In this document: positions 60,001 through 63,000 of the stretch, in pieces
How the letters are laid out: each line of letters starts with the position of its first letter
Numbering within the stretch: the first letter of the stretch is position 1
Assembly: GCA_965153285.1 (NCBI GenBank)
Contig: OZ229129.1
Origin: Podarcis tiliguerta
Lineage: Eukaryota
Length of the DNA: 64,000 bases
Direction: 5' to 3' (one strand)
Position numbers: made by a program

Positions 60001-63000
60001 CTCCCCTGAACTGGCTGTAAGTCAGGAGGAAGAGAGGTGGAGGCTGACTGAGTTTGTTGGGGGCAGTGCCTCATTTGCCCAAATGGACCAAGCCTCCACT
60101 GCGTATGGAGAAGATCTTTAAGTTTAAAAGTCCTTTATGATTGCAGTGCAGAAGGATGTCAAAGACACCAGTCCGTCATCAGTGATGCTGGGGGCTGATG
60201 GAGAAGTTTCACAGGCATGAACAGAAACATTGGAGAAGCAGGTGAAACTGGGAAGAAGTAGTGATGGACAGTTCTCTATTTACCTCCTCATCCAAGAGGT
60301 TTTGGTGACAAGATGAATCACCGGTGCATCTCATACTGCTTGCTGTCAGGTCCAACTCCAATGCAGTTAAGAATAGAGCTGGCTAAAATTTGGAAAACCA
60401 AACTTTCCATCCAAATTGGGTTGGGGAGCATGGTGTAAGAATCAGTGGGAGCAACCCCACTCTTTGCTAATTCCAGAGGTTGTGGGAAATGTTTTTTTGG
60501 GGGGTGCTTACTGGAGCTCTTCAAAGCTCCATCAAGGTAGCAGCTGCTATCTTAATGCCCCAGAATGCCCTATTTTGACAAGGAACTTGCAGGGCTGAGG
60601 GGCAGATGATGGCCACCACAGGAAAAAAAATGGCAGCCCCTGGGGGGTATCACCTGAGCCACTCTGGCCTATCAGCACAGCCTGCAGTTCTCTTCTTTGG
60701 TGCTGTTATGTATTCAAACTGGCTGCAGTTCTCACTCTGGGCCACCAGTATGCAAATGAAGGATTGAGAGTTGCTTTCACCTATTGGGTAGTTAATTGGA
60801 AATCGTTACTGTTACAAGTTATTGAGCATTATATAAGGCAGGCAGCTTCGCTGTTGTTCAGAGACTTAGAGCAGTGCTAACTTCTCTAATAAAGGGCTGC
60901 GTCTGTCACCCATCTTTCCAACTATACAACAGGCACAAATGTTAAATTCCAAGTTTACAAGTGGAGCACTGCCTCACCAACCTCAGTCTGTGCTTAGTCA
61001 AACCCCATCTGCCTGTTTCTTCCTTAAAACCACCACAAGGGAGAGAGGAGGGGAGGCTGCTCCAGCCAGAGTCCACCAATTCCACCGGTGGGGTGCAGAA
61101 TAAGGTCTGTTTCTAACCAGCAGTTTGCAGGTGACTGCGCCCTGCCAGACGAGGAGAGCCAGCCGCTCCTGCACGGCGCCGGGATCTGTAAGTGGTTCAA
61201 CGTGCGGATTGGGTTCGGCTTCCTCTCCATGACCACCAAGGAAGGCTGCCTCAGGTTAACGTGCCTTGTGTCAATGAGGCCAAATGCATTGGTTTATATA
61301 GTTGCCAGAAGAAAAGGGATGCTTCCCCAGAGTGTGTGCAAAGATTAAAATGCTACCCCTTCTAGTTTTGCATCCGTCTTAAAAATAAAATAAAATACAG
61401 TAGCATTGTTTCCCCCCTATTCCCTTCTTAGATATTTAGTATGTGTAAATATCTTATGTAAATCTTTCTGGCTTATTTCCAGTTTTCCTTTTTAATGATT
61501 GTTCACAAACTTGAGGGTGTGGGAAATAGCCAAGGCATGCGGTGGGCATTTGCACCAGAGGGGCATAGAGTGGGGCACCCTCTTTGCACCTTGCAACTTT
61601 GCCACATGAGAGCTGGTTAACGGGTGGGGGGAATTTCCCCTATCTTCCTACAACCAATGAGAGAATTGGACTTCTGAAGTAACAGTGATTTATCTGCAAG
61701 CCAAGAGGAACAATGTCCTTGGGGGGGTGGGGTTGACTGCAGCTTCTTCCACCCACTAGTTTGCAGAATTGTTTTGGAAATTCTTTAGGTCAGTCTCCCA
61801 GGCCTTTTTTTTTAAATGACAATATGGTTTCTAAAACTCTTCAGTTTGGTCTTGCAAATAAATCCCTGCTTGGAATAGGCAATATCATTACCATTTTAGA
61901 CAGTGGTAGACACTATGCATTAGGAGCAAGCAGTGTGCATTGCAGTCAGACTGGTGCCAAGTCTGCACTCAGGGTCACTGTGGAATAGGGAGCACTGAAT
62001 GCATTGGGGGTGGGAAGAGTGGGGGGATGATGGCGACTTCTTGTGTGGCTACATTATTGTGTACTAGGAGACAAAATGAATGTAACTCCCATGTTTACTG
62101 CTAGCGACCAAAGCTTGTTTTGTGTCAAACTCTTTGACTTTTTATGAAGCAGGTGGGTGGGTGGGTGGGAGAGGGTGGGGATGAGAGGGTGACTGTGTGG
62201 GGTTCTTTTTAGAGGGGGGAGGGTCCTGAGCTGCAGGACTCTGTTCAAGCAAGCAGCTATCCTGCTGATTATGTCTGGTGGCGATGTCAATAATCCCCAC
62301 GACTGCATTCCCCTCCCCTTCACTATTTTCATTTTTGTACCAGTTTTGGAAAACGATGGAAACAAATAAAGAATATGGATCATTTTTTTTAAAAAAAAAA
62401 ACACCCCAAGGAGGAGCCCTTTACTTTCAGTTTCCTCCTTCTCCTTAGTCTCTGTTTTGCCCCTGTAGAACACAGCAGGGGACAAAACTAGAATGAACCC
62501 GTTTCACCTGCCATTGGTCCACCTACCATTGGGGCTCCCTGTCTTCTGGCCCTTCAAGTCCCAATACGCACCAGTCAGCAGCCACGGTCTCACACATTAC
62601 TTGGGATTCCACTCCGAGGAGCTGCTTGCAGATTTCAGCCTTGGCACCTGCACAGCATGCTGGTGCAAGACCTCATTCCCTGATAACTCCCTTACAGATG
62701 GCAGAAGGTCATTCAGCAAATGCAAACCCCCAACATTCCTGCCTCAAAGGTAAAGGGACCCCTGACCATTAGGTCCAGTTGTGACCGACTCTGGGGTTGC
62801 GGTGCTCATCTCGCTTTATTGGCTGAGGGAGCCAGCGTACAATCATGTGGCCAGCATGACTAAGCTGCTTCTGGCGAACCAGAGCAGTGCACGGAAATGC
62901 CGTTTACCTTCCCGCCAGAGCGGTACCTATTTATCTACTTGCATTTTTGACGTGCTTTTGAACTGCTAGGTGGGCAGGAACAGGGACTGAGCAACGGGAG

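What the first reader, a model, noticed from the sequence alone, without database searches (positions are those of the whole stretch)
60969..61253. Spliced, 5'-only LIN28A cDNA fragment inserted antisense in the melatonin receptor intron
Seen: LIN28A exon 1 (SVSNQQFAG) is joined without an intron to the start of the cold-shock domain. The fragment includes RNP1 (KWFNVRIGFGF) and stops before RNP2 and the zinc knuckles. There is no poly(A), the start ATG has become ATA, and 9 CpGs survive in 61131-61220 in otherwise CpG-poor DNA. An 8-bp repeat CTGCCTCA (60969-60976, 61246-61253) may be a TSD, which would put ~120 nt of 5'UTR inside the insert. Known: LINE-made retrocopies usually keep the 3' end and poly(A); LIN28A is a germline/pluripotency mRNA. 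Inference: this arose by an atypical route (internal priming, template switch or cDNA capture at a break), is probably young, and records LIN28A expression in the lizard germ line.
Basis: partly seen in the sequence, partly recalled or inferred. Interest (0 to 1): 0.7.

Follow-up and report, generated by a model that had tools for sequence, protein, structure and literature searches.

The report
Dead spliced LIN28A gene fragment
A short, non-functional, intron-less copy of the front end of the LIN28A gene sits backwards inside a melatonin-receptor gene; it is an ordinary kind of genomic fossil whose exact route of insertion cannot be fixed from this window alone.

Summary
The LIN28A-like stretch is real. 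Window 61106-61246 (+) matches full-length LIN28A chains at E=1.7e-16. Residues 3-11 are 9 of 9 identical and the conserved cold-shock core is 22 of 23 identical. Similarity stops after RNP1. No zinc knuckle or RNP2 lies anywhere in the window.

It lies antisense, 10.8 kb upstream of an MT1-type melatonin receptor exon 2. Receptor exon 1 is not in the window.

The CpG cluster is real: 9 in 90 bp, o/e 0.94. The 8-bp repeat exists but is weak, since 4-12% of shuffles give one. The supposed 5'UTR has CpG o/e 0.10, and the "ATA AGG" codons need two or more changes. The secure copy may therefore start only at codon 3.

A solo-LTR-like element lies in the same orientation, ending 169 bp upstream. 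An (AAAAT)3 tract lies 135 bp downstream.

Best reading: a processed LIN28A pseudogene fragment, probably inserted as a short cDNA patch without poly(A). Later truncation of a normal retrocopy is a strong rival. The parent gene, the empty site and the organism could not be checked. This is a new member of a known kind, of low interest.

The parts
61106..61130 (+). LIN28A exon-1-derived coding piece (SVSNQQFAG, codons 3-11)
   Evidence: 9 of 9 identical to residues 3-11 of full-length LIN28A chains. It holds 0 CpG.
61131..61246 (+). LIN28A exon-2-derived piece: the variable N-terminal linker and the first third of the cold-shock domain, including RNP1 (KWFNVRIGFGF at 61190-61222). The last matched residue is Gly at 61244-61246.
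   Evidence: There are 9 CpGs, with o/e 0.78-0.94. One change sits at an otherwise invariant Met of RNP1, which reads Ile here (alignment).
61100..61105 (+). ATA AGG in frame, at the place of the expected first two codons. It is either a mutated start or flanking DNA that is not LIN28A.
   Evidence: Sequence read. The phmmer alignment starts at residue 3.
60977..61099 (+). Its origin is undetermined.
   Evidence: GC 0.56 but only 1 CpG, o/e 0.10. No other copy in the window. No parent mRNA was available for comparison.
60969..60976 (+). Upstream copy of the 8-mer CTGCCTCA (candidate TSD, weak)
61246..61253 (+). Downstream copy of the 8-mer CTGCCTCA, starting at the last base of the last matched codon
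61382..61397 (+). (AAAAT)3.2 A-rich tract 135 bp after the break. It is a possible tail remnant if the insert is longer than the LIN28A-like part.
   Evidence: No approximate direct repeat links its 3' flank to the 5' flank: 0 matches.
60704..60931 (+). Solo-LTR-like element (copy B) in the same orientation as the LIN28A piece. It runs from TG to CA, with TATATAAGG at 60830-60838 and AATAAA at 60888-60893. Its 5-bp flanks are GGTGC and GGCAC (3 of 5 match).
   Evidence: Two other copies have perfect 5-bp duplications: 58375-58861 (+) with GTTTC, and 55439-54822 (-) with GGAAA.
49427..50290 (-). Exon 2 of an MT1-type melatonin receptor, the host gene
   Evidence: E=3.4e-134 to 'Melatonin receptor type 1A' chain 7vgy_A residues 63-346. 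MT2 scores 7.8e-121 and the melatonin-related receptor 4.7e-91.

Best explanation
This is a dead, processed (spliced) fragment of LIN28A mRNA. The securely homologous part is about 140 bp (61106-61246, + strand). It runs across the exon 1/exon 2 junction and ends after RNP1, about one third of the way into the cold-shock domain. It has no start codon, no RNP2 and no zinc knuckles, so it encodes nothing functional. It lies antisense in what is inferred to be intron 1 of an MT1-type melatonin receptor gene.

Most likely route (inferred, not shown): LIN28A mRNA present in a germ-line or early-embryo cell was reverse-transcribed by a LINE-type enzyme. An L1 ORF2 fragment is present in this same window. 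A short piece of the cDNA, truncated at its 3' end and probably also at its 5' end, was then joined into a chromosome break. This matches endonuclease-independent or 'class 2 templated sequence' insertion, which leaves no poly(A), no L1-type target site and no reliable target-site duplication.

I put about 0.9 on 'processed LIN28A pseudogene fragment'. I put about 0.45 on the patch-at-a-break or other non-canonical route as opposed to later truncation.
For: Identity:
- LIN28A chains hit at E=1.7e-16, with residues 3-11 and the conserved core 31 of 32 identical. LIN28B is weaker.

Spliced origin:
- Exon-1-type and exon-2-type sequence are contiguous and in frame.

Fragment only:
- No CCHC knuckle and no RNP2 in a LIN28 context in any of the six frames of the 64 kb.
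- Nothing LIN28-like in the following frame.
- 0 of the 10 longest neighbouring ORFs (70 aa or more) that I sent to Pfam, out of 21 listed in 58800-64000, match a cold-shock-domain, zinc-knuckle or retroelement family. The only hit is one chance-level zf-LSD1 at E=0.047.

No canonical L1 marks:
- No poly(A) at the break, and the junction is not A-rich.
- The 8-mer repeat is at chance level.

Relative youth:
- CpG o/e is 0.94, in DNA with o/e about 0.2.

Machinery in this genome:
- An L1 ORF2p C-terminal fragment lies at 39900-40433 (-), E=1.9e-14.

Precedent:
- Bovine LIN28 has at least ten processed pseudogenes of 100-4000 bp (passages).
- Reverse-transcribed RNA patches without TSD or poly(A), including spliced cDNA, are described in human germ lines (passages).
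Against: - The parent LIN28A of this organism was not available. The breakpoints, the divergence and the exact intron position are therefore not measured.
- No empty site was seen, so microhomology or a microdeletion at the junctions, which would mark break repair, is untested.
- The 8-bp repeat, if real, would argue for a staggered cut with a complete 5' end rather than a blunt patch.
- A later deletion of the 3' part would leave the same picture.
- The LTR-like element 169 bp upstream in the same orientation, and the A-rich tract 135 bp downstream, could each belong to the event. Either would point to another route.
Confidence: 0.45

Rival explanations
1. An ordinary L1-type retrocopy of LIN28A (5'-truncated or full length, with 3'UTR, poly(A) and TSDs) was inserted here. 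It later lost its 3' part through a deletion or rearrangement.
For: L1-type elements exist in this genome. Canonical retrocopies are the common kind, and 5' truncation is typical of them (passages). LIN28 pseudogene fragments as short as 100 bp are reported in cattle. The surrounding DNA is full of nested insertions, which shows turnover.
Against: The high CpG survival and 31 of 32 intact conserved residues leave little time for a deletion to remove exactly the 3' part. No trace of 3'UTR, poly(A) or a second TSD is visible.
Confidence: 0.3
2. The insert is complete as it stands at 60977-61245: about 123 nt of 5'UTR plus 146 nt of coding sequence, bounded by a true 8-bp target-site duplication. 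It was made by internal priming or template switching with reverse transcription running to the mRNA 5' end.
For: CTGCCTCA is the only exact repeat of 8 nt or more between the flanks, and its 3' copy starts exactly where LIN28A similarity ends. ATA stands in frame at the start position with A at -3.
Against: 4-12% of shuffles and 21 of 200 real windows give such an 8-mer. The '5'UTR' has CpG o/e 0.10 against 0.94 in the exon-2 part. Codons 1-2 would need two or more changes while the next 32 conserved codons carry one. The junction is not an L1 endonuclease-type site.
Confidence: 0.1
3. LTR-retroelement-mediated capture. Reverse transcriptase inside a virus-like particle switched from element RNA to LIN28A mRNA. 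LTR copy B (60704-60931) would be the 5' LTR of the resulting chimeric element, whose 3' part is lost.
For: An LTR-like element with TATA and AATAAA lies 169 bp upstream in the same orientation. LTR-mediated retrocopies are typically partial and lack poly(A) (passages). Copy B's flanking 5-mers match at only 3 of 5, unlike the two perfect solo copies.
Against: There is no second LTR in 61250-64000. No primer-binding site abuts the LTR end, and no gag/pol-like ORF is present. 3 of 5 flank matches, with both mismatches being transitions, fits an old solo LTR. Copy B is CpG-poor (o/e 0.30) and 74-82% identical to its relatives, so it looks older than the CpG-rich LIN28A piece.
Confidence: 0.06
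4. Chimeric or internally deleted retrocopy. The LIN28A 5' piece is fused to about 135 nt from another RNA's 3' end, or from the LIN28A 3'UTR end, finishing in the A-rich tract at 61382-61397. The fusion would come from template switching, trans-splicing or an internal jump.
For: An (AAAAT)3.2 tract containing AATAAA lies 135 bp downstream. Chimeras of first exons of mRNAs with LINE 3' parts are described in human (passages).
Against: 0 approximate direct repeats link the flank after the A-rich tract to the 5' flank. 61246-61420 has no other copy in the window. The break is not at an exon end, though the position of the exon 2 end is recalled.
Confidence: 0.06
5. Not a primary insertion. It is either a DNA-level copy of part of an older retrocopy or of a gene fragment carried by a transposon, or an assembly artefact.
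For: None directly. The region is repeat-rich.
Against: No terminal inverted repeats flank it. There is no second copy in the window.
Confidence: 0.03

Closest known systems
Processed pseudogenes of LIN28 / LIN28A in mammals (e.g. the bovine LIN28 pseudogene family, PMC4404226; passages seen)
   Same: Intron-less, non-coding copies of LIN28 mRNA scattered in the genome, some inside introns of other genes, of 100-4000 bp. The coding region is CpG-rich.
   Different: The bovine copies described keep the whole coding region or its terminal part plus downstream sequence. This one keeps only the front of the coding region and has no 3' end or poly(A).
Class 2 templated sequence insertions / endonuclease-independent LINE-1 insertion (PMC5110952; passages seen)
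   Same: A short piece of reverse-transcribed cellular RNA, which can be spliced cDNA, sits in the germ line without poly(A), without an L1 target motif and without a reliable TSD.
   Different: The defining junction features (microhomology, microdeletion, untemplated bases) need the empty site, which was not available. An 8-bp flanking repeat exists and could be real.
LTR-mediated partial retrocopies (review PMC5470649; passages seen)
   Same: A partial coding fragment without poly(A) lies next to an LTR in the same orientation.
   Different: It is flanked by an LTR on one side only, with no element-internal sequence recognisable.
mRNA/LINE-1 chimeric insertions (bioRxiv 10.1101/2025.02.02.635956; passages seen)
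   Same: Only the 5' exon(s) of a cellular mRNA are present, in sense orientation.
   Different: No LINE is recognisable downstream and no TSD encloses a combined insert.

Membership tests
Processed pseudogene (retrocopy) of LIN28A | Significant similarity to the parent's mature mRNA or protein | tested here: met
   E=1.7e-16 to full-length LIN28A chains. LIN28B is weaker.
Processed pseudogene (retrocopy) of LIN28A | Absence of an intron where the parent gene has one | tested here: inconclusive
   Exon-1-type and exon-2-type sequence are contiguous. Papers show an exon 1/exon 2 intron in human, zebrafish and lamprey-to-human comparisons. The parent gene of this organism could not be read, and the exact junction position is recalled.
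Canonical LINE-1-mediated retrocopy | Poly(A) remnant at the 3' end of the copy | tested here: not met
   No A run at 61246. The nearest A-rich tract is 135 bp downstream.
Canonical LINE-1-mediated retrocopy | Target-site duplication flanking the insert | tested here: inconclusive
   An 8-mer is present, but 4-12% of shuffles give one.
Canonical LINE-1-mediated retrocopy | Retention of the mRNA 3' end | tested here: not met
   Similarity ends at chain residue 63-64 of 209. No further LIN28 motifs occur in the window.
Class 2 templated sequence insertion / endonuclease-independent insertion | Junctions with microhomology, microdeletion or untemplated bases relative to the empty site, and no TSD | not testable with these tools
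   This needs the orthologous empty site and the parent mRNA. No vertebrate genome collection was on hand.
LTR-mediated retrocopy | LTR sequences on both sides of the captured piece | tested here: not met
   There are only three copies of the LTR family in the window, and none lies in 61250-64000.
LTR-mediated retrocopy | Adjacent element-internal sequence (primer-binding site, gag/pol remnants) | tested here: not met
   Of the 21 ORFs of 70 aa or more listed in 58800-64000, I sent the 10 longest neighbouring ones to Pfam. None has a retroelement family. No TGG-type site directly follows the LTR end.
Functional LIN28A gene or exon | Start codon, complete cold-shock domain and two CCHC zinc knuckles | tested here: not met
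   ATA stands at the start position. Pfam CSD covers only profile positions 3-19 of 66. The CCHC pattern has 0 matches in the six frames of the window.

The most novel reading that the evidence does not exclude
The LTR-like element 169 bp upstream and the LIN28A piece are two parts of one event. In that case a squamate LTR retroelement captured the 5' end of the mRNA of a pluripotency and growth regulator by template switching, and the LTR could still drive a transcript through the piece. This would be a reptile example of LTR-mediated gene-fragment capture.
Probability: 0.06. Interest if true: 0.45.

Novelty: new member of a known kind. Interest (0 to 1): 0.2.

Why it matters
If the ends are confirmed against the parent gene and an empty site, the piece would be a clean natural example, outside mammals, of a short spliced cDNA inserted without poly(A). 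It would also mark LIN28A mRNA as present in cells that contribute to the germ line. It would be a usable presence/absence marker for related species. It has no evident function, and it does not bear on any long-standing open question.

Tried and rejected
- Rest of LIN28A nearby. Six-frame motif scan of the whole window: CCHC knuckle 0 hits, RNP2-type 2 hits in unrelated contexts, and KWF[ND] 3 hits, of which only 61190 is LIN28-like.
- PDB search with the frame following the break: 0 hits at E<=10.
- Repeat status of the flanks. blastn of 60932-61100, 61100-61250, 61246-61420 and 61400-62100 against the window gave only self hits plus two short chance matches.
- Extended-insert TSD after the A-rich tract: 0 approximate matches.
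- Inverted terminal repeats around the piece: none convincing.
- Pfam on 10 of the 21 neighbouring ORFs of 70 aa or more: no family except one chance-level zf-LSD1 at E=0.047.
- Pfam on 5 long ORFs elsewhere: nothing.
- Rfam on the whole window: 2 tRNA-like hits far from the finding. ARAGORN: 0.
- Receptor exon 1 by motif: not in the window.
It was replaced by the stop-free ORFs.
- Paper searches. 'LIN28A' + 'retrocopy' gave 1 paper, unrelated. 'LIN28' / 'processed pseudogene' / 'lizard' gave 214 papers with 2 or more of the terms, 15 listed, none on a squamate LIN28 retrocopy.
- Searches failed on term syntax.
- A microRNA-site reading of the downstream stretch was considered by eye and dropped as chance-level.
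- No structure, complex or atlas job was run, because none would bear on the question.
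Full report
**What is there.** The window has no N and is CpG-poor throughout, with o/e about 0.13-0.41 per 2 kb and one 2-kb bin at 0.64. On the + strand the frame 61028-61348 is open. From 61106 it reads SVSNQQFAG, followed by a short acidic linker and then the beginning of a cold-shock domain.

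A phmmer search of 61100-61258 against all PDB chains puts 'Protein lin-28 homolog A' first: 8ops_B at E=1.7e-16 and 9w4r_B at 1.9e-16. Query residues 3-50 align to chain residues 3-64 of 209. The nine N-terminal residues are 9 of 9 identical, and the conserved core from LLHGAG to LSMT is 22 of 23 identical. LIN28A cold-shock-only constructs give about 3e-12, and LIN28B constructs give 8e-10 and 8e-9. The parent is therefore LIN28A, not LIN28B. Pfam sees only positions 3-19 of the 66-position CSD profile (E=0.024, below cut-off), as expected for a third of a domain.

**Where it stops.** The last matched residue is the Gly at 61244-61246. The following sequence in the alternative open frame hits nothing in the PDB at E<=10. 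A six-frame scan of all 64 kb finds no CCHC knuckle, and the two RNP2-type motifs it finds lie in unrelated contexts. I sent the 10 longest of the 21 ORFs of 70 aa or more around the site to Pfam. None has a cold-shock-domain, zinc-knuckle or retroelement family. The rest of LIN28A is therefore not nearby as exons, at least within this window. From recall, the break lies inside exon 2 rather than at its end. No call checked this.

**Spliced or not.** Exon-1-type and exon-2-type sequence are contiguous and in frame. Three papers give indirect support:
- Human LIN28A has four exons (PMC3314903, table 1).
- A zebrafish lin-28a morpholino is aimed at the splice donor of that intron (PMC3916362, passage).

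That the junction falls exactly at 61130|61131 is recalled from the human gene.

**Host gene.** Window 49427-50290 (-) is exon 2 of an MT1-type melatonin receptor. It scores E=3.4e-134 to chain 7vgy_A residues 63-346, against 7.8e-121 for MT2 and 4.7e-91 for the melatonin-related receptor. Only this single exon was searched.

The LIN28A piece lies 10.8 kb upstream of exon 2 in gene orientation, on the opposite strand. 'Antisense in intron 1' is thus an inference that assumes exon 1 lies beyond base 64000. I do not take the window for human. The receptor exon differs from the human chains at many positions in the printed alignment, and the repeats are not human-like. The organism itself was not determined by any search.

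**CpG and age.**
- Window 61131-61220 holds 9 CpGs (o/e 0.94). The mean for 90-bp windows is 1.05, and only six regions of the window reach 9. The other five lie in or next to repeat copies.
- Together with 31 of 32 intact conserved residues, this argues that little time has passed since the copy was made.
- The copy is not pristine, however. The Met of RNP1, which is invariant in every LIN28 chain aligned, is Ile here.

**The 5' end.** Three observations speak against it:
- That stretch has GC 0.56 but a single CpG (o/e 0.10), in sharp contrast to the exon-2 part.
- ATA AGG at 61100-61105 would need at least two substitutions from the expected Met-Gly codons (recalled). The next 32 conserved codons carry only one.
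- The phmmer alignment starts at residue 3.

The secure copy therefore starts at 61106. Everything upstream may be host DNA. A parent whose second codon differs from Gly would soften this argument.

**The 8-bp repeat.** CTGCCTCA is the only exact match of 8 nt or more between 60850-61110 and 61225-61450, and five 7-mers also match. Its 3' copy begins exactly where similarity ends. However, an 8-mer match between the 5' zone and the junction zone arises in 191 to 582 of 5000 dinucleotide-preserving shuffles, depending on the tolerance. It also arises in 21 of 200 real 300-bp windows. It is a lead, not evidence. The junction is not A-rich, so it is not an L1 endonuclease-type site (the target motif is as).

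(a) Window 60704-60931 (+) is one of three copies of a roughly 230-bp LTR-like element. It runs from TG to CA and has an octamer-like and CCAAT-like region, TATATAAGG and AATAAA.
- Copy A (58375-58861, +) carries a nested inverted-repeat element and has a perfect 5-bp duplication, GTTTC.
- Copy C (55439-54822, -) carries a nested SINE and has a perfect GGAAA.
- Copy B, next to the LIN28A piece and in the same orientation, has flanks GGTGC and GGCAC: 3 of 5 match, and both mismatches are transitions.
- B is 74-82% identical to A and C, which are 83-94% identical to each other. B is CpG-poor at o/e 0.30.
- I read B as an older, independent solo LTR. Capture mediated by an LTR element is kept as a low-probability rival.

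(b) An (AAAAT)3.2 tract lies at 61382-61397. If the insert extended that far, it could be a tail remnant. No direct repeat encloses such an insert, and the intervening 135 bp has no other copy in the window.

**Mechanism.** An L1 ORF2p C-terminal fragment at 39900-40433 (-), E=1.9e-14, shows that the LINE class known to copy mRNAs exists in this genome. Canonical L1 retrocopies keep the 3' end, a poly(A) remnant and TSDs (PMC5470649, passages). None of these is shown here.

Two readings fit best.
- A short reverse-transcribed piece was joined into a break. This corresponds to endonuclease-independent or class 2 templated sequence insertion, which includes spliced cDNA and lacks TSD and poly(A) (PMC5110952, passages).
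- An ordinary retrocopy later lost its 3' part.

I favour the first, at about 0.45 against 0.30, because the copy looks too little decayed to have undergone a precise secondary loss. This is inference. Heritable insertion implies that LIN28A mRNA was present in germ-line or early-embryo cells. This agrees with the general statement in PMC4404226 (passage) but is not specific evidence for this species. The lizard testis transcriptome paper I opened mentions only Lin28b in passing.

**Known or new.** LIN28 processed pseudogenes, including fragments of 100 bp and intronic copies, are documented in cattle. My two searches found no paper on a squamate LIN28A retrocopy. The feature is a new member of a known kind and has no sign of function.

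**Left unchecked.**
- The parent gene, the empty site, genome-wide copy number, repeat annotation against a squamate library, and assembly support.
- Supplementary files of the papers were closed. The tables of the LINE-1 chimera preprint and the figures of the bovine study might hold closer precedents for 5'-only fragments.

Noticed in passing
window 58375-58861 (+), 60704-60931 (+), 55439-54822 (-): Three copies of a roughly 230-bp LTR-like element running from TG to CA, with TATA and AATAAA. Two have perfect 5-bp target duplications (GTTTC, GGAAA), so they are solo LTRs. No internal retroelement sequence is in the window.
   Followed up: partly
window 58381-58631 and 56067-56318: A roughly 250-bp element with about 20-nt terminal inverted repeats (GTACAGTGGTACCTCGGGTT type). 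It is CpG-rich, up to 12 CpG per 90 bp. One copy is nested in LTR copy A.
   Followed up: partly
window 62746-63015, 56943-57216, 54957-55232, 53207-52936, 46122-45826, 23548-23824, 19905-19678: A SINE-like family of about 280 bp with at least seven copies, 66-88% identical to the 62746 copy. One copy is nested in LTR copy C with a roughly 12-bp duplication.
   Followed up: no
window 63216-63375, 54470-54637, 32235-32375, 16680-16813, 15677-15808: Palindromic elements of about 140-160 bp, consisting of two ~58-nt arms 86-93% complementary with a ~20-nt loop. They are repeated through the window and look like MITEs.
   Followed up: no
window 39900-40433 (-): An open frame matching the C-terminal part of LINE-1 ORF2 protein (E=1.9e-14 to residues 1095-1204 of the human protein), so an L1-type LINE fragment is present.
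   Followed up: partly
window 9441-9791 (-): A 116-aa open frame rich in Arg and Trp that resembles, from recall only, the C-terminal tail of RTE/Bov-B-type LINE proteins. Pfam gave no family.
   Followed up: partly
window 12560-12628 (+) and 34973-35044 (+): Two tRNA-like Rfam matches (41.7 and 30.3 bits) that ARAGORN does not call. They are probably tRNA-derived repeat heads or decayed tRNA genes.
   Followed up: no
window 45011-45262 (within 44001-46000): A CpG-rich patch in AT-rich DNA, up to 11 CpG per 90 bp, with a 2-kb bin o/e of 0.64. It was not examined.
   Followed up: no
window 61747-61766: A 20-nt stretch 80% identical to the exon-1-type sequence at 61111-61130, sharing AGTTTGCAG. 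It was judged to be chance.
   Followed up: no
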